Source: Hydrolagus affinis
Lineage: Eukaryota
Length of the DNA: 64,000 nt
Assembly: GCA_012026655.1 (NCBI GenBank)
Contig: JAAILG010000370.1
Location: 1 to 64,000 of the forward strand
Direction: 5' to 3'
Shown here: positions 10,573-34,700 of the stretch, piece by piece
Position numbering within the stretch: the stretch's first letter is position 1
Layout of the letters: each line of letters opens with the position of its first letter
Position numbers and translations under genes: made by a program
Notes under the pieces: model-generated
The model's input: only the letters and a program-made list of their open reading frames with translations
Database searches by the model: none
Told to the model about the DNA's origin: nothing

Positions 10573-10716
10573 ATGTCTTGGAGGAAGAATTATTTTACAC
10601 CGAATAGTAATGTTCAGGGTATGTTTCAGCCACGTAGTACTACTTCTATTGCTGCAAGTAAAGGACTGATGAATGAGCCTGGTCAGAACAGCTGCTTTCT
10701 CAACAGTGCATTGCAG
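10573..10716 (+). CDS. USP54: USP54 coding exon 1 (start codon, Cys box)
   Basis: [48 protein letters not shown] then gtgagt donor; in-frame TGA upstream at 10498. Confidence 0.95.
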
Positions 10717-13700
10717 GTGAGTACGATTCCTGCAATAAGTTATAAACGGTTAAGCAAGTCGGTTTCCACACAAACATAATTACCATTGGATTACCCCTGT
10801 AACAGTTTGCAACTCTATGTCTATGGAAACTTCCCTCAGTATTATTTTCCTTGTTCTATTTGTTAGATTTCAATTCAATGTATTTTTTTTAATGAAGAAT
10901 TTTAATCATTTTCTTTTCAGATAGAGAAAGAGGACAGGCAAATTTGCTTTTCTATTGATGTTTTTGTACCATCTACAAGGTGGGGTTGGTTAACGCCTCT
11001 TGACATTTTTTACTTTGTCTCTGCAGGGACATGCTTTGTTTTTATAATTCTTTGAAATCACATTCCCATTCTGTGAGGAATCAAAGGTTTGCATACAAAT
11101 GGAACACTATCACAAGACTTATTTACAAAAATGGAATTTAATTTCCAGAATATATTTGCTAATGTAATATACAAAGTAACATAACATGTCTCAAACAGTT
11201 GGCACCAAGGTAGAACATTAGATGTCATGCAGTCAGTCTGCTGTGGGATTCTCTGGAAACCAGTTCCTGAGCCAGGTGGGTCTGGATTATGTCAGAGCAC
11301 TGCAGATGACAGACTAGTCAATCTGACTCATCATAACACTTGACTGTAGAGATTCGTTGAAGTGATTGATTGTGCTTGGGTGGATTTAATCATATGAGCC
11401 AAAGCCCTAACTGGTAGGGTGAGTGGAGCTGGTCAAACAGCTGGAAGCTTTCCAGATACTGTTCTCAATATCATGCTTTGGGGTGTTAGCTATTTTTTAA
11501 AAGTGGACTGGTCAATGTTTGACTTTGATAAAGCATTCAACCAGGGGCTTGTGTTATTGATTTTCCCAACAAGGTAAATTGCAGTTATAGAGAGTGCTGG
11601 GTGGGGCCAGAGGCTGACTCAAACATAAACAATCTACAGGCAAGTCAACCCAGTTTTTCAGCCTGCCCTCTAGTTCTGCAAAATCCTGTGTTTGGAGCAA
11701 GTGGCAAAAAAATGTATTTTTTTATTTATCTGCAGCTATGATCCTCTTCAATATTGTACCAGTATCCTCTCCTTGAATTCTTGTCTGTCTTGCTAACCAT
11801 TATGGGCTTTGAAGCCCTGTTTTTTTCCTTTGAATTCATGCTATCTCAGTAAGTAACCACAGCTAGGATAAAAATAGATTTGTCATTAGCTGAAATGAAT
11901 GCCTACTTGAATACTTATGCTTATTAGTCCCTTTTTAGTTTCTTTTAATTTGGGGGAATGTGATTTTAAAAAAACTTGGATAGATCTAACCTTTATACTT
12001 GTATCAAAGCACTTATCAGTAATTTGATTGTTAATGACTCTGTATGGGAGAAAATGCCCTTGCAGCTCAGCTCACCTCACCTCTAAATAAAATGTACTTT
12101 TTCCTGTGTCTCGTTTAGACTTCATTGGAGTGTTCCACAAAAACTACACCAATAAGATATTATTGTGATGTAGCTTCACAACTTTTATATCTTTTATTTG
12201 TTCAAGTTGTGTCTAATCCTATTTACCCCCACAGAACAGGCCATTTTTAATCTACTCCCAGGCACTGTACTGCTGCTTTGCGGTTGGCTGTAGTGTCACG
12301 TGAAAAAACTTCCAAAGCATCTTCTGTCTTCCTTTCACTGATTTTGTTTATCTAACGTTGAGATAAGTTGCCTTGTGGCAGTTTGTAGTTGTGAACCCTT
12401 TGAGGACACCTGATGCGTTTCCGCATGTGTCAGAACCTGGGAGAAAAAAAGACCAAAAAAGTGATTGAACTGAGACTTGTTGGGCTCAATTTTACACTGA
12501 TCAGTGAACCTGTTATCTGAGTCAACAGCGAGAATGGTTTAATAACTGACGAGAATAATGTTCATACTGACATGAGCTTCAAAAACTCAGAACTTATATG
12601 GTGACCTCCCCCACTTCTATTTTACAGTTAAATAACAAAACATTGTTATAATTTAGCTTGAATGGTTTGTCTAATTTCTTTTATGAATTTTTTCACCAAA
12701 GGTCCTTTGGCATCTAGATATTTTTCGGAGGAGTTTCAGGCAGCTGACCACTCACAAATGTATGGGTGAATCTTGCATCTTCTGTGCTTTGAAGGTAAGG
12801 TATTATGTACTGTAAAAGTCTGTTTATCTGGCACCCGTGAGACCTGGCCAATGCCGGTTAAAGCGCCTGCCGGATATTCGGGCGGCCCGCGGCCGAAAAC
12901 CCACACATAAATGTTAAAGTTCTTTTAATGCACACCATACACACCAGACTAAATAATAACAGAATATTGTATTGGTACTTATTGTTAAAACTACTCTCTT
13001 GCGCTTCTCACCTTTACTGATTGAGGTTTACAGTCCAGCGATTCTTTTTTAAATGGAGGACGCCAATCGAGTTAAAAAAAACGGCAGCGCAATTTTAAAG
13101 TCGCACGACTACTAGCGGCAAGCCGATAACCCTAGACTACTAGCAGCAAACCGAAATACTGCACCTACGAGACAATGTGGGTTATCGGCTAGCTTTATCG
13201 GCTTGCCGCTAGTATGGCTTTAAAGTCGCGCTCCATTTTTTTCACCCACTTGGCGTGCTCCATTTTAAAAAGAATCGCTGGACTATAAACCTCAACCGCA
13301 ACATCATGGCTTCAAGCGCAGCATCTATCATCAAAGGTGAGAAGTGCAAGAGAGTACTTCTAATAATAAGTACCAATACAATATTCTGTTATTATGTTAT
13401 TATTCATGCATTTGCAAATGCTCCACTGCTCTTGTTCCTGATAAGTTCCAGTTTATCGAATGGGGATTTTTTTTTGGCATGCCGGTTATACAGAAGTGCC
13501 GGTTCATCGAGTCACGGATAAACGGGCTTCTACTGTACTTAGTAGCCTGTGTGTGTATGTGTATTTAAACATAGATGCAAAGATGACTTACATAAACTTG
13601 GTAAGATGTTTTGCTAAGGGACTACTCCTTACTTGAGTGCTGCAAATTTGTTAATAAAATGCCATGCTCTTTTCCTCCTTTCTCTCCCGTCCACTGTCCA

Positions 13701-16700
13701 CCCCCCACCGGTTCAATCTCGCTTTTTTTCGTATTGGTCTTTATGAGCCAATGACAGGATCTAATGTCAGTTGGTACTATTGTTGCTTTTTGAGCGTGAG
13801 ATTGCCGCTGGCAATTATAATAATATAAATCTTTGCATTTGATACAACCCTTTATCATGTTTTCGAGAGTCTCAATGTGCTTCACAAAAATAACGTAAAA
13901 TGATTTGACTGTTTATTTTGTGGGCAAAACGCAACAGCACATAGCAGTGTTCCATAAACAGTCGTGGATTGTAGTGACATTTTGTTGATGTTGTGAATGA
14001 TAATCCATTTTTAATCATATTTATGCTGTATGTGGGCTGAAATAGTGTTGAATCGTTGATAACAAATACCGTTCACAAATACCGAATGTTGACAAGATTT
14101 TAATTCCTTTGACACAATTTGCAAGCAGAGTACTCTATGTTCTCTTTATCAAATTTGCATCAGTCACTGCCATTTAGCAAAGTCCAGGGGTCATGAAACT
14201 ATGCCTAGAAATTCTTGGCATCTGTTTATATAGTGCAAACTTTTTTTTTATTGAATTCATGTGGGACTTATCTCTTGAAGATTGGTTGGGGCAAAGGAAT
14301 TGAAAGAAAACTTAAGAATTCTCTCCTTCTGATTCACTTTGATTTATAGATGGCAGCCTCTTGAATACATGTTATGCAACTGCATTTCTTTCTTCTGGCT
14401 TTATTGAATAGCAGTAGATTGTTGATCGTTTATGTGAAGAACTGTTGACTGCAAATTATTTCATATGTAGTCAGTCAGGTTTTTAAAAGGAAGATGGAAA
14501 GGCTTTTCAGATTTGTATTCACCCACTTCGGTGCCAGATTTATTGGTTAAATGTCATTTATTGTTTTTGTATGGTTTGTTAGATAATTTTTCATGTTGCC
14601 TTAGTAAAATTAAAGGTGGTGGCAAAGATATGAGCTATTCTCCATTTTAACAGTGGGTTTTAAAATGGAATTGTCAAAATCATATTAAAGACTGCAGCAA
14701 GGATGTGCAGTCATTAGTAAATAATGCTAAGTTTACATAGCACATTTAATGGTGATTTGTTACTAAAATGCAGTATGAACTAGACAATTATGTGATTGGA
14801 TCCATTCATTTATGTTGCATTTAATTATAGCATGAACTTGACAGCATGTTGGAAGCAACCATGGTGTTACTGATGCAAGTGTAAACTTTGAGATCCACTT
14901 AACAAATATGTTTTCATTGATATCTGTGGAGGTAATTGTCCACTACTGAACCTAATAAAAATATTACATTTGTTAATATTTAATGTTTCAGCCCAACAAT
15001 TAATTACAGGAAAACACAAATGCAGTTACAGTAAAAGCCTATTTATCCGGCACCTGATCAACCGGAATGCTCGACCCCCTCCTTGGGCAATTCCCCATTC
15101 CAGCAATCGCGAGTATGCTCACATTGCGCATATGCGCAATAAGTTTAATGCGCACTTATTAAACTTACAAACTTAGAGGTTTTTACCGATCGGTTAAAAA
15201 ATGCTTTTTACCGAGTGTGCTGAAATCTTTATTGGTAAGTAGCCATACGATATTCTGTTACTATTTAGTATATTATTAATATAGTATGTTTTAAAATAAG
15301 TTAATTTTTTGTGTTTGTTTTTTGGCAACTTGCCGCCTGTTTATACGTCACAGTCAATTAGTCAACCCCCCCCGCCCGAGCGTGCAGGATAAACAGGCTT
15401 TTACTGTATTTTGATCTGGCAGCTGTGAAATAATAAGATTAGTTTCCACAGCACCAAAACTCTTGAATACAGTAACAATGAGGAACTATTCTTTGCAATG
15501 GTTCTGCAATATAAACATAACACAATGAGCTTGCAGTGCTAAAAGCCCAGTTAATCCTTTAACCCTAAATGTTTACACAAAAACCCATCTCCCAAAAGCC
15601 TTAATAATAACTGTTTTAATCGAGGAATATTTTTAACCTGATCTTTTTCCATCTAAAGAGCAGCATTCTACCCAATCCACCACAACCTACACCAAACAGT
15701 AATAGTATTTGTTCTGTAGAACAAAATTTGTTGGTTTGTTTTAATAGCTGAGAGATGGATGGATTTACTGAGTACCATAACCCAAATGCACTTCAAGGCA
15801 TTTCTGGGAGAAAACTACACAGTTAATATTGTCTTAATCCTTTTGTAAACAAAAAATAATAAACTTGGTGAGAATTCTTTGTTTTGCTGTGATATGGGTA
15901 GATATACCAGGTAAGCAAGTATTGACACAAAAACAGAAGTTGCTGGGGAAACTCAGCAGGTCAGGCAGCATCCATGGAGAAAGGAAAAAGAGTCAATGTT
16001 TTGGGTTGTAGACCTGAAACGTTGACTCTTTTTCCTTTCTCCATGGATGCTGCCTGATCTGCTGAGTTTCCCCAGCAACTTCTGTTTTTGTTTCAGATTC
16101 CCAGCATTTGTAGTATTTTGTGTTTTGAAGCAAGAATTGACTATTGCCATAACTCCATCATCATATTTTAAGCAGTAACACTGTTCAGATAATTTGTGGA
16201 GTGTAACCCTGGCTAAGGGTTTGGATTGGTGTGATTTATTCACATGTATACAACTTTCTAAACCCTAGATTGTGTTGATGTTTGACAAGAAATATGCAGA
16301 ACCAACAGAATAAACCAGGTTAAAAATACTGTACTGCTTTTACTTACTTTTTAATATGTGCTATTGTATTTGAAGACTAAACCATCTTTTAAAAAATCTG
16401 GCAGTGTTCTTGGTGTTTGGATCAGTAAATATGATGTACATGTATTTTTCAGCTGATGATAGGTCTGATGTTGACATTATGGTTTTCAATAATTTATGCA
16501 TATTTTAAGTTAAATGTACAGTAAAAGCCCGGCACCCAATCAACCATAACTTCCTTATAACCGGCATCACAAATAAAAGGTCTGCATTTGATTAACTGGA
16601 ATTTATCCGGAAAAATGTATTGAAAAAAAAGTGTTTTTTGTTTTGTTTTTTGCGTTTTCGGCCGAATATCCAGCAGGCGCTTTAACCAGCATTGGTCAGG

Positions 16701-19700
16701 TCACGAGGGTGCCGGATAAACGGGCTTTTACTGTATTTAATATTAGTTCTAGTAAATTAAGGATCTGTATGTGCACAACTGAAAATACAATATACAGTAC
16801 TCTCTTGGATGTATTCGACATAAAGCTAAGTAATACAGTACTAGGCTTAAGGTTAATGGTACAGTTATTCCAGCAGGGTTAATATCTCTCAACAATGAAT
16901 TCTTGCAACATTGTAACATAATTATATACAAATCCATTTTTAATCACTTGATCATGTTATGTTTAATTCTAAAGTGTAACTGAGGGTTTGAGATTGCTGT
17001 TTTAATGCTCCTACCACTGATGATTTAAGAGACCTTGCACAGAATGAATTAACCAGAATGTTTCACCATTTTGAGTAGAATGTTGTAATGATTCTCTCCC
17101 CCTGAAAATGCAGAGCCAAAATCATCTTTACAAAATACCGATCTGATTAAATATCAGTATTTCACCTAGTGAAATTGGACACAATGGAAAATCACTACTA
17201 CTGTTTTTGGTTATTTTAGTTTAGTTATCAAACCCTTTTTTTTTTTAACTTCAGCGTATTCAACTGTAGCAGCAATGTTTTTTCATTAAGGGTCAGGTTA
17301 TTTCTTTATCCTCTTCAACCAGCAAATTGATCGTCAATTTCAGAAATGACAGTCCAGCCTTCCAGCTACTGGCATTGACTGAATTAGAAATGGGCACAAA
17401 TTCAATCAACTTTCCACAAAAGCTTCAAGGCTTATTTGCACACGGCCATATGGACTTGACGGCTGTTCAGATCTGTAAAACTTTATTTTTAAAAAAAATC
17501 TGTAATATCTGTACAATTTATGCTGTGGTTGTTTTAAATATTATCTTAATATGATTCATATGAATTAATGATTCATATTAATAGGAGTGGATTTTTTTTC
17601 CAACCCTCTTTTACCAATCTATCTCAAATAATCTCAAATCACATTCAATAACTGAACATGTGCTCTCTGATTGGATAATAATAATAATCCTTGCATTTGA
17701 TGTAGCTCTTTTTACGTCTTTTTGTAGACATCTCAAAGCCCTTTACAGAATATACTGTAAGGTGAATTGACTGTATACATGCGGCAAAACGCAGCAGACA
17801 ATTGCACACAGCAGTGTCCCACAAAGTTGTGGATTGAAATGACCAATTTATTATTGTTTTATTTTGAGAGATTATTATTAGTCATGTGGAGCAAGGAAAC
17901 TTGCCAAAGGTTTTGCCCTGCCTGGAATTGAACCCAGGTCTCTCGCTTGTTAAGGTGAGTGCTCTAACCACTGAGCTATAGGACTCCACAGTTGATTATG
18001 GTCTACAATAAATTCCAGCTAACTTGTCATTCCAAGGGAGAAGGATTCAGTCCCAAGTTAGACAAAGGTCCTTCTTCTGGTGACAGACCGAGCTGTTGTC
18101 AGTTTGATGGGTATCCCCAGGTTGTCAATTTATTTGTTAAAACTTATGCCCCCAACACCTCGGCGTTGCTCTTTCGCTCATTCATCCAGCGTCCACTCGC
18201 CGCAAACACTGCATGCGAGAATGCAAGTCCAACTTCCCGCACCAGCAAGAACAACAGATTATATTTGTATGGCGCATTCCACTTCAGGAGTACGTCCCAA
18301 AATCTAGGCCTGGGGGGAGCCACAGCCCAGCTCTTGAATTGACCAGGGGCCCCTGGGATGCATTTGAGCGTACTTAAATGTTAATTGAACTGTAACATAT
18401 TAGCGGGACTTTTTTTGTAGTGACATTTTGTACAGCTCCTGGAAGCACTTTCAAGAGGTTCTTTTTGATTTCACTTTAGACATAAATGGTTTCCGTTTTT
18501 GGTGTTTGTAGACTTGTATGATTGATCTTTGTTTCAAAGTGACCCTGTATCACAAATGTACTGTTTCCTGTCTATATCCTTTCAAAAGATAGCTGTGTAC
18601 CCATTGATTTATGTTCAGTAAAATTCTAACTATTGCTATGATGTAGCTCAGTGACATGTTGACCAGGAAGGTCATAGGTATTGATCCCTGGCCAGTGCTG
18701 AGTTTGTATTCCTGCTTGAGATTGAATCTGAGCAAGATACAATAGACCAAATTATTTCTGGCAATAGAAGAAAAAATTACCAGCTTTACATGTGTATTTA
18801 TAATCTTCTGCTGTTGATCTAAAGGGATCAATTTAACCAATGAGATATTTGTATTGTCCATATTATTGCTCTATATCAGTGGTTCCCAACCATTTTTTGC
18901 TGCGACCTTAAATTGGCCACCAATAGGACCTCCCGACGCGTAGGGGGCGACTGCGTGACTGAAGTGAAGTTCAGCCAAGACGGTATCTCCGTCTCTTTTG
19001 TGGACCCAGCGCAACTCGCTAGTATGTTCTTTCATACAAATTGGTTGGCAGTGATGCCTCGGGCACTTTTCAGCACAAAGAAAAAAAAATTCTGATGACC
19101 CTTCACGACCCTACTGAGGACCCCCGCAACTCTGATTTGGGTCGGGACCTGAGATTGGGAACCACTGCTCTATATAATAAGGTGTCTTCAAAAAGGTTTT
19201 CTATTTCTTAAAATATGTTTGGAAATGCTATCTAAAATTAGCTCATTATGTATGGCTCTCTAATGTTTGATTCTGCCATAAAGTTTTTTTTTAAAAGATA
19301 TACAGTAGAAGCTCGTTTATCCGGCACCCGCGGGACCTGGCCAATGTCGGTTAAAGCGCCTGCCGGATATTCGGGCAGCCCGTGACCAAAAACCACTACA
19401 AAACAATTAAAGTTCTTTTAACACACACCAGATTAAGTAATGGCAGATAGTGAAACAATGTTGGTGCTTGTTGTTGGGGCTGCTCTCTTCCGCTTCTCAC
19501 CTTTGCTGGTTGGAGTTTGCAGTCCAGCGATTCTTTTTTGAATGGGGGGCGCCCGGCGGGTGAGAAAAACGGTAGTGTGATTTTAAAGTTGCGCGACTTT
19601 ACTAGATGTAAGCCGAAGCCCTAGACTACTATCGGCAAACCAAAATACTGCACCTGTGCGACAATGTGGGTTATCAGCTTGCCGCTAGTATGACTTTAAA

Positions 19701-22700
19701 GTCATATGCGCTCCGTTTTTTTCACCCGCTTGCCGTGCTCCATTTTGGGGGGAGTCGCTGGACTAAACCTCAACCGCAGCATCATGGCTTGAAGCGCAGC
19801 ATCTACCAGCGGGGGTGTGGGGCGCAGGAGAGTGGTTTTGACGGTGAGTGCCAATGCAGTATTCTGTTCTTATGTTATTATTTATGCATTTACAAATGCT
19901 CCACCGCTATTGTTCCGGATAAATTCCGGTTTATCGAATGGGGCCTTTTTTTTTTTTGGCGGGCCGGTTATACGGAAGTGCTGGTGCATCGAGTCATGGA
20001 TAAATGGGCTTCCACTGTATATGGATTTTGAATTATATGGACCATTTTTTGTTTGCTTCAGGAAATCTTCACTCAATTCCAATACAGCAAAGAAAAGGTA
20101 CTTCCATCTGATGCCTTGCGTAGTGCTCTTGCCAAAACTTTCCAAGATGAACAGCGCTTTCAGTTGGGGATCATGGATGATGCAGCAGAATGTTTTGTAA
20201 GTTTAAACATGAATCACCAGTGTTGCTTTTTAAATTTGGAACCATAGACTTTAACGTAGGGAAATCTTCCCATTATTTTGTTTCTCAAAAGAAATACAAT
20301 TGCTTATTCTGTAAATGAGCAAGTTCTGAACATCTTGAGGTGAATTGAATTGTATATTATTTCCCTAGATTGTTTTCTTTTACAGATGAGTATTTTAATA
20401 AAGTACTGTTCCATTTAGTTTTAATGAGGAATATTAGTAGGTCACAATTTGCTAGGATTCTAGTGGTGTGAAAATGGTTTGTTACCTAAGTTGAGGGAGG
20501 CGGTGAGGGAAAAGATAAGTGAAAATGTAGTTGAATGGTAAGGTTTTGAGAAGGACCTTAGAAAAGCTGAATCAGAGGGAATACAAGTTGGAGTTCCAGA
20601 AAATGGGGGCAGCTAGGCATTGCTGTTGACAATTTGTATAAATATATTTATTACTAACTATTTTGTTTTTCATTCAAGAGGCAATAAACAATGAACCCTT
20701 TTTTATACATAGGAAAATATTCTCATGCGAATCCATTTTCATATCGCTGATGAAACAAAAGAGGACATTTGCACAGCAAAGCATTGCATTCCTCATCAGA
20801 AATTTGCAATGACTTTGTTTGACCAGGTAAGATACATCCATACTTGAATTATGGAAAAGGAATGTGGCAGTATTATAAACCTTTATTTAGTATTGTTTCC
20901 TGGTACCATGTTCCGAAAGCAAATCAACATTTAAAGGATATTTCAAGAAGTGCACTTAAATATTACAAAGATGCAAAACTGCTTCCTTGTGAAAAATTAT
21001 TGAACTTTGATGCAGCTTGAATTGGTGTAAACAATGCAGGTTTATTCCCATACTCAAGTTCTATTAAAATGGGTGCTTTTTATGTAAGATAAGTTGAGAG
21101 GCTTCTTCAATGTTTTTTCTTGCATGAGCTATAATAAATCTTTGCGGACCTATCAATCACACCAATGTGTAGTTATCAATATTTCATACCTTGGTAATTG
21201 TCTTACAAATGATGTACCATTACTCTCCTGGTAGATTTTTTAATTGAACTTCCAACCATAGAATGTTCAGTTGGAAATGAGCAGACTTTATTCAAGATTG
21301 TTCAAGTTTTTTTGAACTATGTGAATATTTGTGCTTCTTGCAGTGCGTTTGTACCAGCTGTGGTGCAACATCTGACCCATTACCTTTTATCCAGATGGTG
21401 AATTACATCTCTACGACAGCATTGTGGTAAGCCTTTCCTAATGATGACTGCACTAAGCCTGAACTTTACTTGGCAATACACTCGTACAAAAAAGAAGCCT
21501 GTGACAGAATTGGGATAAAGAAGTGAAAGATCAGAAAGGCTTAGTGTACAATGTTCCCTAATGACCTATTGGAAAATCCAACAGAAGCTTTTTATTACGC
21601 TTTCAATTGCTGAAGTGGAATATATTATGTTAAATTTCAAACCTTGTTGTAGGATTAGAAAATAAAGGGTTTGTAATAGAGAATGAAATTACCTGGTATA
21701 TTTTGAATAGAAACAATAGAACCAATTTCTAGCATGCAGGCAAGTTAGGACTGTCTGAAAATTATTCTTGCAGACTACTTCATGATTTTTTGCTCCTTAC
21801 TTATGTAAACATGGGGTTTGGTACACTGAAGACTAATGGAAAGTAAAGTATTTTTGGATTGGAGCCTTTTAGCTTATTGACTAAGCTACACTTATTTTTT
21901 AATAGCTTCTTTGATGTATTCTTCTGAACGTGTTTTTACAACACCCTCCTCAGTAGGGGTGGGGGGGAGAGAGAGAGAGAAGAAAATGCATAATAATAAC
22001 AATAATAATCCTTGCATTTGATATAGCATTTTTACAGATTTTAGACACCTCAAAGCGTTTCACAGAATATATTGTAAAGTGAGTTGCCTATATATGTGGG
22101 CAAAATGTGGCAGCCAATTGTGCACGGCAGTGTCCCACAAACAGTCATGGATTGAAAATGCCCAATTTTGTTTGAGGGATTGTTATCAAGCATGCGGAAT
22201 AAGGAAAGTTGCCCAAGGTTTCGCCCTGCCTGGAATTGAACCCAGGTTTCTTGCTTGTAAGGCGAATGCTCAAACTACTGAGCTGTAGGACTCCACAAGC
22301 TTAGAAATAAGTTTAAATCTTGGGACCTTTTAGATAGAGAGATGTAAATGTTGATCTGTATTTTCAATCTAGTTCCTTAAATGAAGACTGCTGTGTACAT
22401 TTAAATATGCAGAGAATAGTTAACACTTTAAAACTTTTATACTGTATATACAAGGGTTTAGTGCTTCTTAATGTGGTGTTACAAACATGGTTGTGTTGTG
22501 ACTAAAATGGACTATACATAATCACAAGTAATTTTTACAAAGCAAATTGGTTTTGTTTAATTAATTTTCAATAGTATACTATTGTTTGCTATGTGATTAA
22601 GTGGGATTTGGCAGCAATTTTTCAATTTGTCAGAAGTTTGATGTGGATGTCACAGAGTAGAGGGTTTGTAAGTTTTCATGGAAATCAACTCTTTTCTTTT

Positions 22701-25700
22701 TTATTCCTTTTGTGTAGTAATCAAGCAATCCGCATGATGGAAAGACGTGAGAAACCAACGCCTGACATGTTTGGGGAGCTTCTGCAGAACGCAAGCACAA
22801 TGGGTGATCTCAGGAACTGCCCAGTAAGTGCTTTCCTCTTCCTATTAGATGTCCTTGTGAAGATTAAATATGGAAGAATTTTGTGTTGTACTTCTCATGA
22901 AGCAAACAGAAATGAATATTTAAATCCAGTGACTTTCTAATTCAAATGTATGCAAAATCTATTTGGGTTTACATGGTCTTGATGCAGCTATGTAGTGCTA
23001 GCAGGTTCGGTAAAGAGTTTACATTTTTATAATGACTTTCTAGAGGTTCCAAGTGCTTCATGAGTAATTAATTAGTCTAGTATAGTGAACCTTTTTTGTG
23101 TGTAGACATACTAGACATTTGTAATAGCAAGGTCCTACAAACTTATCAGATGAATATCCAATGCAGCTGGAGAATTTTTAGCCTGGATTAAAGTTAATCA
23201 TTCATTTTGGCTGTTATTTTGCATTGATATTGGGGTAAAGTTGTAGGGAAAAGCTAAGATTATTTTTATTATTTATTTTTAGGAAATTGGGAGTAAACAA
23301 AGTTTTTTAAAAAAAACTCCTTAAAATATAGATATTTTCAGGTCCAACTTTGATTTGTTGAGGTATGGAAGCATTTAGTTTATTTGTTATCTTTTTCAAT
23401 CCTACTGTACCAGGAAGTAAACTATTCAAAGCACAATTGACTTAATGTGATTCTTTTGTGTTGAAAATGCCAAGCTCTTTTACTTCAATGGGAAGATGGC
23501 TGTGAATGTAGCTGGAATTTGAATGGCTGTAATTTATTGATGAACACGCAGAGTTCAATAAGTTTTTAAGATTTTGGTATCTTGATCACATGCAGATTGA
23601 GTGGTATCAAAACAAAATAGTTTCATTGATAATTTAAATTATTTGAATGAAGCAGTGAACAGATAGGTGACTTTGACATAAATAAAGGCATTTGGATTAA
23701 AATGTTACCAACTTGTGCACCTGCAAAAAGTGCTGGTGTCTAGTAGTCTTTGGATAGTTGCCCTTTTTTTTTACAGCAACAACAGTTATGTTTTGAGTTG
23801 CCTATTGATCTTTTTATTATTAAATTATTTCAATATCAAGCTTTCTTAAGCACAAAATTGTAAAACATGTATGTCATAATTTTCCAACTTTCCAGACTAC
23901 GCTTATTAAAATAAATAATACTACCCTGCAAGAAGTTTTGTAGAATCTGCAGTTTTGCTGTTTGTCTTTCTCTCCCTCCACCCCCACTGCCTAATATAAA
24001 GAGGGAAATCGGGGCACAGTCAAAGGGTCAGATCAACGCTAATTGCTTTTGGTAGCAGCTAGAAGCTCATTGAAGTGGCATCCCTCATTACTCTACCAAC
24101 ACAATGTATGTGAGGGTCTCATTAAAAATTGGTGTTGGATCTCTTCCCATGTTTGTGGTCGAGTGGAAGAAGATAATTATTGGTCTTCAATGCTGTTTTA
24201 AAGCTCTATTTTATGTATTCTGCTGTTGTTCTCAGTATCACGTTGGTGTGTTGTGACACATAAAGCTGAGAAGCAGTTGGGGTTAAAGTAAACTTGACTT
24301 TATTGATTGTGATTGAGGGTTACCGATATTTGATATTCTCATTGGCATCAATTGCAAAAAAGTTTTGAGAATATGAGTCTATGCTAATGCATAATTTGGG
24401 TTAGATAGAGTCTTGGACCTTCGGGCAGTTAAATATTCATGTAACCCTATAATATTCCAAAATGCTTAAATGAATAAATCCTTGATATTGCGTTTCTGGA
24501 GATAGATACTGAGATTATTGCTGTTAGTAAATCACACTAATTATTCAGCATATTACTACTGCTGAGTGGTGATTGATCACTGTCAGTAGTTAATTGGAAA
24601 CTGCAAAGCACTTTTTAAAGCGCTCATATTGTTAATGAGTTTGACATTACTTTGAAATTAAATATGGAATATAAAATTAAAACTATTATAGAATAAAAAT
24701 GCAGCATCTTGGTTTAAACAAGGAAATTGCAAAGACTAGACCACTGATCATTCTAAGTAGCTTCATTCACTGCCATAAAAGTTATTGCTGTATTGATGCT
24801 TAGTGATGTGTGGTTGGTAAACATTTTGTTTCTAAATAGTTTAAAAAATGTGTTGTAGTAATTTTACTATGTTTCCATAATGAGCAAAGGAATAATATTT
24901 AAAATAATTGTGAATATAAAATGTTTAGAAACGTGTAATAATTTAGAGAGCGTGGGGGGCAATGTAAAGTTTTTAATTTCTTTGTTTTTCAATAATATTA
25001 TTTTGTTTCCCAACATCCTTTACATACTGCAGAGCCTGCTGGAAAGATGTTGTTCCTAACAACCTTCTGCAGTGTGTAAGGGAAAAATGAAACCCAATAC
25101 TTTAGTTCAATTTCTTTAAAGATGGTTACAAATGGTAATGCAATTTGATGTACTACACATAGAAGGGAGCTGTTTGTCAGAACACAGCTGTGCTGCTGTT
25201 AGCCACCGGAAGTTACTCCAATTGAATTGCTAAAACCAATTACATTAATTTCAACAAACCATGCAATTGAGATTACAGGACATCATTTGTAATGGCCTGC
25301 ATGACCTCCTTTTTTTTAAATCCAGAAAGGAATATGGTTTAGATAGCAAAACATGTATGTTGTATTAAAGCATCAACTGTTTGTACTTCTACAAATTTCC
25401 AACTAAGTAACGTGCATTTATTCACGTTGTTTGCACAATATTTTGTTTGCAGATATTTCCATTTAGTTATTCATCTTTGAAGTTAAATCCATCAATTTAG
25501 TTTCATGTATTCTATTCAATACATCAAAAAAGCTGTTCTAGTTTATTTGTGTGCCAATTATCAGCATTTTAGACTTAATAATTAACAGCATTTTACAGGA
25601 ATTCTTTTTAGTTCCTCCCTGATCACAAGTAATTATTCCATCACCATCTTTTTTTTAAAAAAACTTCCATATATATAAAAAGTACATATACTTGGGAAAA

Positions 25701-28700
25701 TGTCACCATATGTCGTTAAACTAGGTTGAGAGAGCAACTGTTCTGTTTCTTTGACATGATCTTTTGAAGCTGCAGGCCACCCACTCAACCATTTTGTGTG
25801 TTTAAATTATGTAATGCAAATGCAAGATGACCCTTTGTCACAATCTCTTCAACATTACTGTGATTTGATGTGCCTGCATCTTATAAAATTAAAAATTTGC
25901 ATTTATGCTGTCCCATTGTGAATTGTAATGTAAATAGGATAGCTCAAAGTCAATATTTCTTGGACATGGGGAGAATTGTAATGGAAAAACTCCTGGTTCT
26001 AGTTCGAATGGGTTTAGTAAGGCTTTGATTCTGTGGCATACCAGGATTACAGCACTGAACTGAAGAAACTGTTCAATTGTAAAGAGGATTGAATATATTT
26101 GTAACATTCAAGGACTTTGCTACTAATCCTCATCTGTTTTGTACATGGTGAACAATTTTAACGAATTATTGTAATCTGAGCTTAATATTCAACATTTTAA
26201 TGCACTGCCAGCAAAAAAGGAGGCCATTTGGCTGAATAACAAAATTAGCTAGTGCAAATTATATTGCAGAAGTTACATAACTTAAGTCCAATTCCATGCT
26301 CTTTTCCTATTACGTAATTATTATTAAATATTGTTTCTAAATACTATAAAAGGGTTCCATTCACTTCTCTTTCTTATATCCACAAAAGTATAATTATTTA
26401 TGAGCATGTATAATTTGACTTTGAAAAATTGCTCTTTCGCAATTTTCATCAATATTCATGTCAATTCTAACCTTTGGATTATGCCTTATTAAAAAAAACT
26501 TGGATAATTTTAATATCTTTTTCCCACTATTTTGTTTTTCATTTCAGTAGCTTCAGAAATCTGGAAAATGTTATATAAGATGTTTCCCTTCATTGGCAAA
26601 CAATTTAAATTTGATTGGTAGCATAGCATTCACCTTAGGTGAGATATGTCAGCAATGTGGAATGGAATTGTTTCGACCCAGTGTCAGCATTTGAGGCATT
26701 ATTAGATGAGGTTTGAGAAAACTGGACACCATTAAAGCTCCCTTCATTCTAGCTAAACAATGCATCTTAACTTCAATGTGAGACTGTTAAACTGTTCTGA
26801 GGTATAGTGTGATAGAACAACAACATGCTCTTGTCTATTTTTGGAAGGGTGAAAGCCTTCAATTCAAATGTCAGAAATATTTGTTTTATGTTCCCTTTAC
26901 AGAGCAACTGTGGTGAGAAGATAAGAATCCGCAGAGTATTAATGAACTCCCCCGAGATTATCACTATCGGTTTAGTATGGGACTCTGATCATTCTGATCT
27001 TGCTGAAGATGTCATCCATAGCCTAGGAACATGCCTCAAACTGGGAGATGTAAGATAATGAATATTTGTGTTATTCTGTTTTCCCAAACAAAGTCTATAT
27101 CTGTAATTACAGAGGAATTTGCAATTTAGTTGCGTTGCAAGATAATGTGGCTCTTTTAGGTTAAAGCACCAATTTATTTATGAATAGTCAATAAAGAGTT
27201 TGTGAACTAGCTGACAAAAAAAACCCTGATTTCAATTTGTTTTCATTAAAGACCAGAATGTTAGTTAAAAGTTTTTGAATTTGACATTCTTTGTTATTGT
27301 ATGTTGTGATTGATTTTAGATGTAGCCTTTTGCAGGATTTTTATCAAGTTCATGTATTACCATTTGTTCTTTGCAGTTATTTTATCGGGTGACGGATGAC
27401 AAGGCCAAGAACACTGAGCTCTATTTGGTGGGGATGGTGTGTTACTATGGTAAACACTATTCCACTTTCTTTTTCCAAACCAAAATCCGCAAATGGATGT
27501 ACTTCGATGATGCTCATGTAAAAGAGGTAAAACTATCCTGAAATGTTTATTTATAACACTAATGCAATTTTGTTCAGATATCATGGTTAATCAGAACTTT
27601 AAAGTTAATAATGTCCATAAATTTGTTCTCATTGATAACTGTATCCATCAAATGCTTTATACTTGGTTTATTATTTTTTTTAAAATTTATTTATTTATTT
27701 ATTTATGTATTTTCCACACAAGATTTATAATTAGCTTTTCAAAGCATGCATTCTGACAGTGGAGGTTGAGTACTGCTGGGAGGCAGACCCTCTGAAACTA
27801 GGTTGCACTAACTAAAGGGAATGCAACACATTTGATAGTGTATAAAATGTTTTAAACAAATACTGAATATACTGGTGTTTGCTTTTATTAAATTGTTCAA
27901 ATTCAAGTCCTACGGTTAGATTGCAGCAACAGTGTATGCATTTACAAAATGATAAGATTGTTCTTAAGTTTGGTGTTGGAATGTGAGAATGCCTTACCAG
28001 AACCGTTAAAGTTGTTCATAACAGCATTTAGAAAGAATTGGATATATACTGGAGAAAATAATGTTAAAGGGTACGAGGAAATAGCAAGAGAATATGATTT
28101 AGAGTAGATAACTACACTGGCTGAGCTAGCTCTTGTACAAACATTGAACTTTCTATGATTCTAATGCATGAGCTCTTGCTTCTGGTTCAAGCTGTAAGCA
28201 CTTTGACAAATTCTATTTACCACAGATAAAAGGTTATAATTTATTATAACAATATATTGTAATTGTAAATAAATTTATGTTCAACCTCAAGAACATGTTT
28301 TTAGATATCCAAGCCAACCCCTTTGTACCTCTGATATAGCGTGAGCCTGCTTACGACATAGTTGAACTGTGGATCCATTGTATATTGGAATGTTCTCGTG
28401 CTGGCTGACTGGCTCCCTGTGCACTGGACACAGGCGCAGAATCTTCCCAGCATTTTCGCAGTGTTCCAGTAACTGGAATACTTGTCAGAGTGATTGCCAG
28501 CTGTCTTGGGTCACAGGACGTAAAGTCAATAGTTACCTGACGACTGCGAAGTGCTGATGGTGGCCATTTTTAGTGAACCCTATTATAAAATGTGGCTTAA
28601 GATTGTGAATCCAAATAATGCTTATGTAGTAGTGATTTATTATATGCAAAGAATAACATTTTGATACTGAAGAAGCAGTTAAAAAGCTGCAGCTCAGCTA

Positions 28701-31700
28701 ACTATATTTTACTTTAGATTGGACCAAAATGGAAAGATGTGGTGACTAGATGCATAAAGAGTCACTATCAACCTTTGCTACTACTTTATGCTGATCCCAG
28801 AGGCACACCTGTGTGTGTGCAGGACTTGCCTTCAGTAGACATCCATCAATACAACAGAACTTACTATGACAGTGAAGATTCAGGCAAGTTTGATATTTCA
28901 TTACTCATCGGTGTTTAATATCTATACAGGTAGGCAAAACACATTAAAGATTCATTCATAATTATTAACTCAGCTCTGTTTTAAAGATTTACTGCAGAAG
29001 AATTCAACAACTGCTTAAAAAGCCCCCTTTTATATTATCTTTTCCCACATCATTCACATAGCTAGGTTGTGGTCTGTTAAATCTCATGAGCAGATTGGTA
29101 GGCGTTGTGCAAAAAAAAATAGTATCCTAACTGAAGCCTTTGATTTTAACTGTGCAGCTCTCATAACATGGATGTGATTGGGACAATTGCTGCGATGCAT
29201 TGATTATAAAACCATATCTTACCAATGTGTTCCAGTTTTTTGACTAATCTTTCATGCTCCACAAAATAATTTTGGGGGACAATATATTACTTTATGAAAT
29301 TTACAGTGTATTCTAGCTTGTCGTTTAAATATTTCAATTATATGTCCTTCAAATCATTATTTTGAACTCCTATCTCAAAATAGATCATTTGTTTCTGCAA
29401 ATGTTGCCTGAAATGTATCTGTAACCTATGTAGGTTCATTCCTTTTCTGACTTGTTTTTCTGAACAGAATTTATCATCACAAGTGCTGTGTTCCTTACCA
29501 CTTTCAAAACCCTAATATTAGTGATGCATGTGTTTATCTACTAATGCATATTCCAAAACATAGGCATACTGTGTGCAATGTCTGCTGTGTTTCACCCACA
29601 AATATACAGTCAATTCACTTTGCAGTCTACTCTGTAAAGCACTTTGAGACGTCTGGAAGACGTGAAAAGCGCTACACCAAATGCAAGGATTATCATTATT
29701 ATTGCTGCTGAAAACTCCAAAGCAAGACAAAATGGTTTTGGCAATGAGAGAATTGTTGGTAATGGCCCTCATACTCGCTTCCCACATCTGTAGGATTATA
29801 CCTCACAGAGGATGGAAAATTAGATGTTAATTGTCTGTTCGTTTGGCCAGGTCACAATGCCATTGTGAAGCTTTACAAACTGATTTGTTGCTAGTTTGCG
29901 GTCAGGAGAGAAGCAAAGAAGTAGAAAAACATTGTATTATTACTGATAATTCTGCTGGTTATGCAGTTGGAATCTAACTTTAGTTTTCATGATCCTCTAA
30001 GGATTTCAAAAGTTCAAACATGCCAAAATAAACAATAAGAACAAAAGGATCTTTCACATAACTATATATTGCAGCTTTTTATGTTTAGAAATTTGGAAAG
30101 GAGTTTCAATAGTAACTCCCAATCTCTTAGGGAGTTGACATTTCTTAGAAGCGATGTAACCTAGTGTAGTGATTTTTTCTTTCTCCTGTTTTTTTGCTGA
30201 GCACAACACTTGGGTTTCCTGTTTTTCTCGGATAACTGATATATTTGACAATGTAGAAAATTGCTTTTGAAACTATTACCCTTGAAAGTTTCAAAGTTTG
30301 AAAGATGTATATATGTTATAGGATGATTAATTAGTTTACTTTAACAATTCTAAAATGAAAGGCTTTTGTTTCCGAAGTTTGATTACACTCTTAGAAAGTG
30401 AAGAAATATGCGTTAAAATTGGTGCTCAGCAAACCTATTTAGACAATAGGTGTAACGTTTAGAAATATATTCTCTTGTCAGCTAAATATGTGTTATTTTG
30501 TTTGCTTGTCCTTTTGTAGGAAGAGAGCCATCGATATCCAGTGATAGCAGGACAGATTCTTCTAATGAAAGCTATCATTATAAACATAGTCATCATGAAT
30601 CTGTGGCCAGCCATTTCTCCTCTGACTCCCAGGGTACGGTGATTTACAACATGGAGAATGATACAGCCTCTGAAAGTAGCAGAGACACAGGTACTCTAGA
30701 TTGATATAAATAATAACTACAGTAGGTAGATAAATGAAAAAAACTGTCAGATGGTATATAGATAGATAAATTGATGTGCAAAATACAGGTGATATTAACA
30801 AAGGTAATTTTGGAGTGAAGATAGATGAGTTAAAATGGATTAAACTAATTACAGTAGAAGCCCATTTATCCGTGACTCGATGCACCGGCACTTCCGTATA
30901 ACCAGCACGCAAAAAAAAAAAAGTCCCCATTCGATAAACCGAAACTTATTCGGAACAATAGCAGTGGAGCATTTGTAAATGCATAAATAATAACATAACA
31001 ACAGAATACTGCATTGGCACTCACCATCAAAATCATTCTCCTGCGCCCCCCTACCCCCACTGGTAAATGCTGCACTTGAAGCCATGATGCTGCGGTTGAG
31101 GTTTACAGTCTAGCGACTCCCCCCAAAATGGAGCACGGCAAGCGGGCGAAAAAAACTTTAAAGTCATACTAGGGGCAAGCTGATAACGCTAGCCGATAAT
31201 GCTAGTCCCACATTGTCGCACAGCTGCAGTATTGCGGTTTGCCGTTGGTAGAGTCTAGGGCTTCGGCTTGCAGCTAGTAAAGTCGCGCAACTTTAAAATT
31301 GCGCTGCCGTTTTTTTCACCCGCTGGGTGCCTCCCATTCAAAAAAGAATCGCTGGACTGCAAACCCCAACCAGCAAAGATGAGAAGTGCAAGAGAGCAGC
31401 CCCAACAACAAGCACCAACACAACATTCTGTCACTATCTGCCATTACTTAGTCTGATATGTATGGTGTGCGTTAAAAGAACTTTAATTTTTTTGTAGTGG
31501 GTTTTCGGTTGCGGGCCGCCCGAATATCCGGCAGGCGCTTTAACCGACATTGGCCAGGTCCCATGGGTGCCGGATAAACCGGCTTCTACTGTATTTCCAA
31601 AAGGATTTCAACATCAATCTTTGAAAAATAATTTTTTTTTGAAGACTAGCTGCAATCATGGACCTTTCTTCTGTTACTAGTGTAGAACTTAAGCTGTAAA

Positions 31701-34700
31701 TGTTATATAATGGAAAGCCTAGATTTTAAAAGCTGCGAATAAAAGTGCTTGAAGGCTTAAATGGTTCAAGCATTTCTCCTAATGAAATGTTCTGATTGGA
31801 GCGCACAGTCTGCGGCTCGCTGTGCCCAAAATTGCTTTCTTTTAGTGTGTTGTATTGATTACCCAGCCCGAATGCAATGTAAGATATTCAAATAAAAGTG
31901 AACATTTTTTTTTACCAATTGTCTCTTCAGCTACAATCTGAAGATACAATGGGTTCCATAAGCATTCCTTATATTAATTTATATTCATTTGGATCATCAT
32001 AACTGGCATAAATCTTTGAAGAGCCCTATTCAGTAGCCCTTAATAATATTTTTATTTAAATTATATACTTTGCCCTAGGACACCATACAGACAGTCAATC
32101 TAACCAACATCCTCCTTTCAAAAAAGGGATTTACGTGGACCGGAGAAGGAGTTCCAGCCGACCTCGACGTATTGATAATAGTGGAAAACCTGAAAAAGTG
32201 GATGAAGTTCCATTCTCTGGTTATCACAGTGAAGGTAAGACAAGTTGCCTTTTCTGATATCTGCTGTGAAATACCAAAAACTAAAATGCAGATTGGAGTG
32301 TATTTTAATATATATTTAATATAGAATGTACAGGAAAGTGCATGTCTAAGTCTTGGAATTGCCACTAGTTCATGTTATTTATTTTAAATTGTAGGTGAGA
32401 CGCTAAAGGAAAAACAAGCACCAAGAACTGGACCAAAAGTTGCTTCTAGTAGACTAAAAGACTTCAGAGAAACCATGAGTAACATTATTCACAACCGGCC
32501 TCTGCACAGCCAAGACCAAAACAGCAATAAACCTATTCAAGCAAAGGCAGCGGACTATGTTGATGGTGGTAATGCAGGAGTGTCCAATGAACAATCACAC
32601 GACTGGGAAATGGAAAATACCAGCAGTCAGTCCAAGATTAATACATCCAGTAGATGCAAAACCTATTTGTGGAAACCCAAAAGAGAAGTCCTCAACATTG
32701 ACAGTATTTTCAGCAAGGAAAAGAAGAGAAATACAAGTTATGCACAGATAAATTCCATGTCAGAGGATGGTATTAAAAATTCCAACTTGAATCACACTGA
32801 AAGTTCAGTTGGACATAGCATTTCTCCTTTGGCATTAGACAATACAAAGTATGAAGGAAACGCTGTGCAACTGAATCATGATAAATATGAGAAACCTGGG
32901 TACATGAGCAAAACTATACAACAGACTGGTATCTCTAGTCTTGGAGAAAATGAGCGTCTTATCCAGCGAATGGAGTCAGGTTATGAGAGCAGTGAGCGTA
33001 ACAGCAACAGTCCAGTGAGCCTGGACACCTCAATAACTGATGGGCTGCCAGGTGGAGTTCACAACGCTAGTGCCAATCCTTTCAGGTAAAACTCAATTCT
33101 GACTGTTTAACACATTTCTTGACTGATTTTTGCCCATAGTATTCATGATTTGTATTAGTTTTATAACATTTGTTTGTCATTGTTACTGTTACAGCAGTAA
33201 TTCATTTTATAATGCTGTATTTTGAATAGTAGGATGTAATTGAATACTGAACATGCTGATATGTGATCGAAAATACTCTTGTAATAAAAATGGGTAGTTT
33301 GCATCTTATATTGGACATAATTGATAAGAGCTGAATGTCCAATCGTACCAGTGGACAAGAAATTGCCATAGTTATAAGCATTCAATAGCATCATTTTCAG
33401 TCAAAAGTATTATCAGCTTTGAATTTTGCTCTGACTGTAGATTAAGCTTTATAATGTTCACAAGTGTTCAAATGTTCTTGATACAGTAGCAAGACTAGTT
33501 TGCATTTTGTTCCTCTCCCACCACTCCATCCATGAAGCCCTGCAACAACAAAATTATACTTGTATAGCTCCTTTCACGTCAGGAGGATGTCCCAAAGCGC
33601 TGGACAGTCATTGTTTCAGGCCTGAGCTGGGATTTGGAGGGAAAGGAGGGGATTTGGGGAACCGTCAAAGAGGAGCAACTTTAGCTGGGACTTGAAGAAG
33701 GCCAGGGAGGGGGCAAGGCGGAGGGACTATGGGATGGAGTTCCAGAGGTTGGGGGCAGAGTGGCGGAAGGCTTGCTTGCCAATGGTGGGGTGGGTGGTCT
33801 GGGTCTAGAGCAGGCTGGAACCTGCTGAGTGGAAGGGCAGGCCGGTTGGTACAGGGTTAGGAGGTTGCAGATGTAGGTTGGGGCGAGACCTTGGGGGGCT
33901 TTGAATGTGAGGACCAGGATCTTGAATTGGATCCTCTGGGTGATAGGGAGCCAATGGAGTCGGGCGAGGATGGGGGACATGGGATCACAAAGCTTGTAGT
34001 GGTAGACAACACAGGCCGCAGAGTTCTGGATTATCTGCGACATCTAGAAAAAGTAGAAAGCACTGTATCAAATGGAAGGATCATTATTAAATTGAGAGAG
34101 AAAAACAATTATTTTAGTTGGATGCATATTATATAAAAAAAAGCATATTGTTTACTTGTGATTCATCTTCCTGTGCAACACTGTATCCTGGGCAAACTTT
34201 TAGCAATGTTTTTTTCTTTTTCATATTCTCCAATTTCCCAGTTTGTAGTACAGTTGGCAATGCACTTGCCACATGATCAGAGTCTGTAACAGTGTCTAGT
34301 TCATTTTCTTTCTTTCCTGGGTTAGCCTGTCTGAGCAAAGGGAGGGCAGCAGTACACTAATGAGTGCATGACTGACAACATACATAACTTGTTGGGCTTT
34401 ATGTCCCTGGGTTATGAAGAGGAAATATGCATCACATTTGTATTTCACATTGCTGACCTTTGTTTGAAAATGTAATTTCATGGGTATTTGGATGTGGACA
34501 CAATTGGACATGGCTCGATGCTTCTCTGGCTGCTAACACTTGCCTTGATTCACAAATGAAGAATGACAATGAGGATGAGATGCTAGAGGGTAGCCAAGTC
34601 CTACATAACCGGATTGCAGTATAAGTCTATATTTTAAGGAAAGAAAGGGAAGTATTCAGACAGGAGAACCCTTCATCTGATATTTTTGGAAAGTTGTACA

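What the first reader, a model, noticed from the sequence alone, without database searches (positions are those of the whole stretch)
19430..19880. ADAR-like A-to-G hyper-editing footprint fixed in a DNA-transposon (MITE) subfamily
Seen in sequence: copies B (19303-20017, +) and C (30852-31591, -) differ from copy A (12810-13535) by roughly 40 A-to-G substitutions (manual count), largely shared and all on the same element strand. Examples, A vs B/C: ggtacttattgttaaaactactc vs ggtgcttgttgttggggctgctc; ccattttaaaaagaatcgc vs ccattttggggggagtcgc; caaaggtgagaag vs cgggggtgtgggg; taataataagtaccaatacaat vs tgacggtgagtgccaatgcagt. The changes fall in BOTH arms of the element's internal inverted repeat and essentially not in the unpaired terminal parts, where A-runs such as ggttaaagcg and ttaaagttc persist. 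A is the ancestral state: copy A's arms are near-perfectly Watson-Crick complementary, and the outgroup copy at 55495 reads accaacaaaggtga. Edited A's are mostly preceded by T or A. Established knowledge: clustered, strand-specific A-to-G in long dsRNA with 5' U/A preference is the ADAR A-to-I hyper-editing signature, and Tc1/mariner MITEs move by DNA cut-and-paste with no RNA step. Inference: a hairpin transcript was hyper-edited and written back into the germline genome (e.g. by L2 reverse transcriptase or cDNA-mediated conversion), and the edited master was then re-amplified by transposase. B and C lie in opposite orientation with their own TA TSDs, so the edits predate both insertions.
Basis: partly seen in the sequence, partly recalled or inferred. 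Interest (0 to 1): 0.9.

Follow-up and report, generated by a model that had tools for sequence, protein, structure and literature searches.

The report
RNA-edited copies of a DNA transposon
About a quarter of the copies of a small hairpin-shaped DNA transposon in this fish genome carry the fingerprint of the RNA-editing enzyme ADAR, acquired many separate times and on both strands, which suggests that an element thought to move only as DNA repeatedly passed through RNA in the germline.

Summary
B and C share 52 A>G against 5 T>C versus A. They belong to a 743-bp TA-flanked MITE (about 4,000-5,000 copies) in a chimaera-like genome. An unedited precursor subfamily, A2, fixes the polarity. A2 to the edited consensus is 49 A>G with no other substitution. 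A second set of copies is edited on the opposite strand (32 T>C, nothing else). Edits lie only in the long hairpin: 0 of 67 outer A's and 0 of 8 bulge A's. They favour a 5' T/A, and the two strands hit mirror-image sites (26 of 30). In 88 copies sampled without regard to editing, 22 are edited, all on the A2 background. There was no single founder: 35 antisense copies fall into 7-9 non-nested patterns and 92 sense copies into 18-39. Edited copies keep normal TA duplications, have no poly(A) tail and share no carrier flank. Best reading: ADAR edited hairpin RNA, which was reverse-copied into germline DNA many times and then spread by transposase. The editing signature is shown; the write-back route is inferred. 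Ten literature searches found no such case.

The parts
19303..20017 (+). Copy B: sense-edited (G-type) MITE, A2 background, 43 arm A>G; TA at 19301-19302 and 20018-20019; intronic, sense to the USP54a-like gene
19434..19588 (+). Arm 1 of B's internal hairpin (approximate limits), edited
19694..19884 (+). Arm 2 of B's internal hairpin (approximate limits), edited outside the bulge
19776..19807 (+). Unpaired bulge in arm 2 (approximate limits); unedited in the sense-edited and main antisense-edited groups
   Evidence: 0 of 8 A (sense), 0 of 6 T (antisense)
19303..19323 (+). 5' terminal inverted repeat (21 bp, begins CAGT); not edited
   Evidence: 7 of 897 TIR A cells read G; background 0.9%
19997..20017 (+). 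3' terminal inverted repeat
30852..31591 (-). Copy C: sense-edited (G-type) MITE, 47 arm A>G, same pattern cluster as B; TA at 30850-30851 and 31592-31593; intronic, antisense to the host gene
12810..13535 (+). Copy A: unedited member of the older A1 subfamily; TA at 12808-12809 and 13536-13537; intronic, just after an exon
55495..55960 (-). Copy D: related 480-bp MITE family with the same TIR type and no long arms; 0 of 30 nearest copies edited
16519..16733 (-). Short 215-bp MITE with the same TIR type
10573..48916 (+). Host gene (context only): coding exons of a USP54a orthologue; A, B and C lie in its introns

Best explanation
The element is a Tc1/mariner-superfamily (pogo/Tigger-like ends, recalled) non-autonomous DNA transposon whose middle folds into a roughly 160-bp hairpin. 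While its A2 subfamily was active, germline transcripts of either strand were hyper-edited by ADAR (A to I). The edited RNA was then copied back into DNA on many separate occasions. The two likeliest routes are RNA-templated repair of the break left when transposase excises a transcribed copy, and a cDNA (made by a LINE or repair-polymerase reverse transcriptase) that converts a resident copy or is integrated by transposase. Edited copies kept intact TIRs and some were amplified further by ordinary transposition. Shown: spectrum, polarity, confinement to stems, neighbour bias, both strands, many patterns, normal TA ends. Inferred: that the substrate was RNA, the enzyme ADAR, and the write-back route.
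For: A2 to G consensus 49 of 49 substitutions A>G; A2 to C consensus 32 of 32 T>C. Background A>G is only 0.9% per site, and unedited A2 copies show no excess at edit sites (14 of 1677 vs 53 of 5734, p=0.88). Edits confined to stems; bulge and ends spared; 5' T 38/66, A 42/85, C 6/29, G 7/27; 3 of 3 A's folded opposite C edited. Mirror sites on the two strands agree: 26 of 30, OR 21, p=5e-9; rho 0.70 at pattern level. Antisense copies keep the bulge and all arm-specific letters, so they are not inversions or conversions of sense-edited arms. The 8 antisense pattern groups are non-nested (4-21 private edits each way; 10 sites shared by all). Purified ADARs gave no product on an all-DNA duplex (PMC5389660, passages). 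Palindromic DNA repeats are hyper-edited as RNA in Xenopus (PMC5625713, passages). Transcripts can template break repair in human cells (PMC12065846, abstract). RNA reads of a related species show more A>G and T>C places on an unedited copy than DNA contigs do (103/104 and 80/68 vs 29/33 and 18/18).
Against: No founder with retro-marks was found: no poly(A) within 30 nt in any of 124 copies and no shared carrier flank among 88 sense and 31 antisense copies. No 3'-G preference (16 of 40 vs 43 of 85 for A), although ADARs usually show one (recalled). The inner stem and the 21-bp TIR stem are almost unedited despite TAG triplets. The A1 subfamily forms an equally good hairpin and sits in introns too, yet 0 of 45 are edited; this is unexplained. 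The RNA signal is weak, because transversion places also rise about 2.4-fold (124/121 vs 52/51), and the runs are pooled family reads from another species. Mosaic copies (L272, L236, L284) show that recombination inflates the count of sense patterns. The matching transposase was not found (4 of 150 DDE_1 places inspected).
Confidence: 0.78

Rival explanations
1. ADAR deaminated the DNA strand directly in RNA:DNA hybrids, with each RNA arm pairing to the opposite arm of the same-sense displaced DNA strand; replication then fixed dI as G. No reverse transcription is needed.
For: ADARs edit dA in hybrids, best at dA-C mismatches, with the usual neighbour bias (PMC5389660, abstract and passages). 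Cross-arm hybrids would also spare the bulge. It explains normal TA ends and the lack of retro-marks.
Against: Wild-type enzyme is slower on hybrids than on RNA duplexes. About half of all stem A's on both arms of one strand would have to be hit and escape dI repair. An ordinary R-loop would expose the unpaired ends as well, and 0 of 67 outer A's are edited.
Confidence: 0.12
2. An unknown deaminase or an error-prone polymerase (Pol eta or iota, T-dGMP misinsertion; recalled) acted on a single-stranded DNA hairpin formed during gap repair of the excision site.
For: It ties the changes to transposition and to one active subfamily (22 of 43 A2-background copies vs 0 of 45 A1). Pol eta also prefers 5' A/T (recalled).
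Against: No A>T or A>C accompanies the 49 and 32 changes. A polymerase would not skip the bulge inside an arm, nor hit mirror sites on both strands. No vertebrate enzyme that deaminates dA in a DNA stem is known to me, and ADAR did not.
Confidence: 0.06
3. A few A2 copies sat inside an active LINE or SINE master, were edited and retrotransposed with it, and were later cut out by transposase, so the RNA phase belongs to a carrier.
For: It would explain the A2-only origin, the roughly 20:1 strand bias (21 vs 1) and the lack of private mutations between patterns. This is one possible route within the best explanation, not an alternative to ADAR.
Against: No common junction: SINE-adjacent copies are 17 of 88 sense-edited vs 10 of 78 A1 and 7 of 54 A2, at scattered positions and both orientations; the one shared site (SINE position about 238) also holds A1, A2 and antisense copies. 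Only about 290 of 4,000-5,000 copies were seen, so rare founders could be missed.
Confidence: 0.15
4. Gradual mutation, GC-biased conversion, selection against the palindrome, or an assembly artefact.
For: Editing weakens the DNA hairpin (computed -229 kcal/mol for A2 vs -182 and -174), so selection could favour edited copies once they exist.
Against: Bimodal counts; one substitution type on one strand per copy; hundreds of genomic copies with their own flanks (482 exact matches to an edited 29-mer); the edited arm-1 letters also appear in DNA-labelled contigs of another species (table 5c).
Confidence: 0.01

Closest known systems
[quoted passage not shown]
   Same: About half of the A's in an inverted repeat changed to G and recorded in DNA.
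   Different: Retroviruses reverse-transcribe as part of their cycle, and those were single isolates. Here the element has no RT step in its known cycle, and roughly a thousand germline copies and many events are involved.
RNA-level hyper-editing of palindromic Harbinger DNA repeats in Xenopus tropicalis (PMC5625713, passages)
   Same: A self-folding DNA-transposon repeat is an ADAR substrate.
   Different: In the passages read, editing is reported in RNA reads; here the edits are genomic and inherited.
APOBEC-edited LTR retrotransposons (PMC4866542, passages)
   Same: Strand-specific deaminase hypermutation fixed in repeat copies.
   Different: G>A on RT intermediates. That study used DNA transposons as a negative control and found only weak, non-specific clusters (268 G>A and 323 other among 17.9 million copies).
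RNA-templated double-strand-break repair (PMC12065846, abstract and outline) and retroprocessing of edited RNA in plant mitochondria and kinetoplastids (recalled)
   Same: RNA sequence is written back into the genome.
   Different: Not described for transposon excision sites or for ADAR-edited nuclear repeats in what I read.
Tc1/mariner-superfamily (pogo/Tigger-like) MITEs
   Same: Short, non-coding, 21-bp TIRs starting CAGT, TA duplication, thousands of copies.
   Different: A quarter of the copies bear the mark of a duplex-RNA enzyme.

Membership tests
Tc1/mariner-superfamily MITE | Terminal inverted repeats | tested here: met
   21-bp TIRs, perfect in A2
Tc1/mariner-superfamily MITE | TA target duplication | tested here: met
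   TA on both sides in 110 of 124 copies with both ends aligned
Tc1/mariner-superfamily MITE | Short, high copy number, no transposase gene | tested here: met
   743 bp; 1,916 exact matches to one 22-mer; too short for a transposase, ORFs over B and C of 127-139 aa only, not scanned against Pfam
pogo/Tigger branch | Autonomous DDE_1 partner with the same TIRs | tested here: inconclusive
   150 DDE_1 places in the genome; 4 fetched, none with these TIRs; the branch label rests on recalled TIR likeness
Class II (DNA-only) transposition | No RNA intermediate | tested here: inconclusive
   The editing footprint implies an RNA phase for 22 of 88 copies or their ancestors, but a DNA-strand route is not excluded
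ADAR hyper-editing footprint | Clustered A>G on one strand only | tested here: met
   49 of 49 and 32 of 32
ADAR hyper-editing footprint | Confined to long duplex | tested here: met
   0 of 67 outer, 0 of 8 bulge, 54 of 98 stem A's
ADAR hyper-editing footprint | 5' G disfavoured, 5' U/A favoured | tested here: met
   80 of 151 vs 13 of 56, p=1.4e-4
ADAR hyper-editing footprint | 3' G favoured (recalled) | tested here: not met
   16 of 40 for 3' G vs 43 of 85 A, 15 of 33 C, 19 of 49 T
ADAR hyper-editing footprint | A opposite C preferred (recalled) | tested here: inconclusive
   3 of 3 edited; positions 171, 546 and 548 could instead be retained ancestral G
ADAR hyper-editing footprint | Same sites edited in RNA of unedited copies | tested here: inconclusive
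   Modest A>G/T>C excess in pooled RNA reads of a relative; per-site rows cut
Retrocopy / LINE-mobilised element | Poly(A) tail, long TSD, shared flanks | tested here: not met
   No poly(A) in 70 edited copies and TA-only ends; no shared carrier flank

The most novel reading that the evidence does not exclude
The A2 subfamily used a hybrid life cycle: it was copied through its own hairpin RNA (possibly from the CCAAT and GC-box motifs in its left end), reverse-transcribed in trans, and pasted at TA by transposase. Many insertions would then be separate RNA passages, each stamped with its own ADAR pattern. That would be a replicative RNA route for a class II element and one answer to how MITEs outnumber their cut-and-paste parents. 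It fits 12 pattern clusters among 19 newly sampled sense-edited copies with unrelated flanks, the A2-only origin and the strand bias.
Probability: 0.3. Interest if true: 0.96.

Novelty: new variant of a known kind. Interest (0 to 1): 0.88.

Why it matters
DNA transposons are the standard example of elements with no RNA step and have been used as the negative control in genome-editing screens. Here about a quarter of a family carries a duplex-RNA enzyme's signature, gained many times. If the reading holds, it is a heritable, countable record of RNA-to-DNA information flow in a vertebrate germline. It makes two open questions testable: whether transcripts template repair of transposon excision breaks in vivo, and how MITEs reach high copy number. 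It also gives a fossil read-out of ADAR site preference on one substrate from dozens of molecules, and a simple screen (single-type, single-strand differences between subfamily consensuses) for other genomes.

Tried and rejected
Antisense copies as inversions or arm-to-arm conversions of sense-edited copies: rejected, because the bulge and arm-specific letters are kept and there is no non-T>C difference from A2. Single edited founder: rejected by fit (log-likelihood -2416 for 1 pattern vs -904 for 10; best description length at 10-14), by 113 of 253 site pairs with all four combinations in 5 or more copies, and by non-nested antisense groups. Retro-carrier flanks: not found; two sense-edited copies share a SINE site, but it is a hot spot used by all classes. 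Autonomous partner: not found in 4 loci. A degenerate pattern meant to count antisense edits on the A1 background mostly matched sense-edited arm 1 read backwards, so it did not answer that question. Other repeat families in the window showed no clear one-way skew in pairwise hits. Family D: 0 of 30 edited, but the sample is the 30 nearest to copy D. No RNA holder was listed for the copy-A locus; this is no evidence either way. The tree gave an ordering only, as the script stopped before printing support values. Pfam on 18 window ORFs gave one sub-threshold hit; Rfam gave two tRNA-like SINE heads. Ten paper searches listed no report of genomic ADAR footprints in a DNA-transposon family. The library lacks most subscription papers and Repbase reports, and I opened no supplements, so absence from print is not established.
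Full report
Observation. Of 80 alignment columns where B and C agree against A, 52 are A>G and 5 are T>C. B against C is balanced (12 G>A, 7 A>G, 10 T>C, 10 C>T), so the skew lies between A and the B/C pair. All three copies are in introns of a USP54a orthologue on the + strand. The nearest named protein is from Callorhinchus milii (93% identity over one exon), so the genome is chimaera-like. C is antisense to that gene yet carries element-sense edits, so its edits were not gained from this pre-mRNA.

The family. It is a 743-bp element with 21-bp TIRs beginning CAGT and a TA duplication (both sides TA in 110 of 124 copies with both ends aligned). One unedited 22-mer matches exactly 1,916 times in the 1.11-Gb assembly. 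At about 4% divergence that implies roughly 4,000-5,000 copies (inference). Positions 142-613 fold into a long hairpin with a roughly 30-nt bulge in arm 2. The pogo/Tigger label is recalled from the TIR; no autonomous partner was found in 4 of 150 DDE_1 places.

Polarity. The consensus of 30 A-like copies differs from that of 58 B/C-like copies by 48 A>G, 4 other substitutions and a few indels. Searches with the unedited ends found a third group, A2, that has those other changes but not the arm A>G changes. A2 to the sense-edited consensus (37 vs 73 copies) is 49 A>G and no other substitution. Full-length copies carry 0-7 or 36-53 A>G against the A1 consensus; two later copies had 31 and 32 against A2, one of them a mosaic. 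Non-CpG divergence falls in the order A1 4.6%, A2 4.4%, edited 3.6%. Three sites (171, 546, 548) are G in A1, A in most A2 and G in edited copies, so they may be edits at A-C mismatches or retained G.

A second strand. One copy (L124) showed 13 T>C and no A>G. It led to a set whose consensus differs from A2 by 32 T>C and nothing else (22 full-length copies). These keep the bulge and every arm-specific letter, so they are A>G edits of the antisense strand, not flipped arms.

Signature. Sense-edited: 54 of 98 stem A's, 7 of 43 inner, loop or bulge A's by the computed fold, 0 of 67 outside, 0 of 8 in the bulge. Antisense: 29 of 88, 3 of 47, 1 of 64, 0 of 6. Pooled 5' neighbours: T 38/66, A 42/85, C 6/29, G 7/27. 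There is no 3' G preference. Of 30 antisense edits at A-T pairs, 26 mirror a sense edit (OR 21, p=5e-9) (all). The same enzyme-like selectivity therefore acted independently on the two strands. TIR A's are at background (7 of 897). Family D, which lacks long arms, had 0 of 30 edited (biased sample).

How many events. Among the first places listed for the unedited 22-mer I took 90 (the 30 loci given, plus 60 of the other 70; I skipped 10 already held, including B and C). After dropping 2 assembly duplicates: 45 A1, 21 A2, 21 sense-edited, 1 antisense-edited. All 22 edited copies are on the A2 background (p=3.5e-9). Copies of one master should differ at about 4 non-CpG sites. The 35 antisense copies fall into 7-9 groups depending on the cut (sizes 22, 5, 2, 2, 1, 1, 1, 1 at the middle cut), none nested in another, sharing 10 sites; these were found by similarity searches, not at random. 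The 92 sense copies fall into 18-39 groups, and a mixture model prefers 10-14. Some neighbouring sites exclude each other (166 vs 168: 0 copies with both, 26 and 42 with one). Three copies have long unedited tracts, so recombination or partial write-back adds to the sense count. The sense groups may also share an edited founder followed by further rounds, since 32 sites are near-fixed; each round would still be a new passage. A cautious minimum is about six antisense and several sense events (inference).

Route. Edited copies look like normal transposase products: TA on both sides in 46 of 52 sense and 17 of 18 antisense copies, and no poly(A). No carrier junction is shared; the one repeated site is a SINE hot spot used by all classes in both orientations. 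RNA reads from a related species laid on an A2 copy give 103/104 A>G and 80/68 T>C places, against 29/33 and 18/18 in DNA contigs. Transversion places also rise (124/121 vs 52/51), so this is only suggestive. Purified ADARs did not react on an all-DNA duplex and were slower on hybrids (PMC5389660, passages). I therefore put edited RNA plus reverse copying at 0.78, ADAR on the DNA strand of a hybrid at 0.12, and a DNA-hairpin enzyme or polymerase at 0.06. Within the RNA reading, repair of the excision break from a transcript and a cDNA handled by transposase are about equally open; a LINE or SINE carrier is less likely. Why only A2 was affected, and why sense exceeds antisense about 20:1, is unexplained. 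A2 has perfect TIRs, and the family's left end has CCAAT and GGGCGG motifs, untested. Editing weakens the computed DNA hairpin from -229 to -182 or -174 kcal/mol, which could favour edited masters (inference).

Known cases. ADAR marks fixed in DNA are reported for avian retroviruses (PMC12925331, passages). Palindromic DNA repeats are edited as RNA in Xenopus (PMC5625713, passages; PMC2873906, passages). A screen of 80 genomes treated DNA transposons as a negative control for DNA editing (PMC4866542, passages). Transcript-templated break repair is shown in human cells (PMC12065846, abstract). A 2025 commentary asks why edited A's in transposons are not genomic G (PMC12458077, passages). Ten searches listed no genomic ADAR footprint in a DNA-transposon family; the library is incomplete and I read no supplements. 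An unchecked note from this scan describes one edited MITE inside a LINE in another genome; it is a lead, not support.

Verdict. The write-back mechanism is inferred. I file it as a new variant of edited RNA written back into DNA, with a 0.3 chance that it marks a new RNA-mediated copying route for a DNA transposon. Interest 0.88.

Noticed in passing
window 15923-16095: A near-perfect 173-bp hairpin repeat whose five arm mismatches are all G-T on the + strand and none A-C. It could be A>G editing or C>T decay; too few to tell.
   Followed up: partly
window 2273-2868, 6870-7620, 33543-34038: LINE-like fragments (L2/CR1 likeness recalled) whose pairwise differences are rich in A<->G in both directions (for example 35 A>G, 30 G>A vs 9 T>C, 17 C>T). 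The strand is purine-rich, so composition may explain it.
   Followed up: no
L272, L236, L284: Sense-edited copies with long unedited tracts (L272 at 541-579; L236 at 226-267, and 218-451 counting variable sites; L284 at 474-481): conversion tracts or partial write-back.
   Followed up: partly
L145, L348, L200, L257, L155, L003: The MITE inserts repeatedly at about position 238 of an abundant 312-bp tRNA-derived SINE, in both orientations and in all subfamilies.
   Followed up: yes
window 12699-12810: Copy A begins about 15 bases after the end of a USP54a exon match, close to the splice donor; effect on splicing unknown.
   Followed up: no
element positions 39-76 and 105-111 (left end of A, B, C): CCAAT, GGGCGG and an A/T-rich box in the CpG-rich left end, a possible internal promoter.
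   Followed up: no
G000 C55, C773, C126388/C126393: Identical or mirrored repeated stretches that look like assembly duplicates.
   Followed up: partly
window 54831-55220 (-): Weak ABC2_membrane match below Pfam's cut-off; probably chance.
   Followed up: no
window 17913-17985 and 22221-22292 (-): tRNA-like heads of the SINE copies.
   Followed up: no
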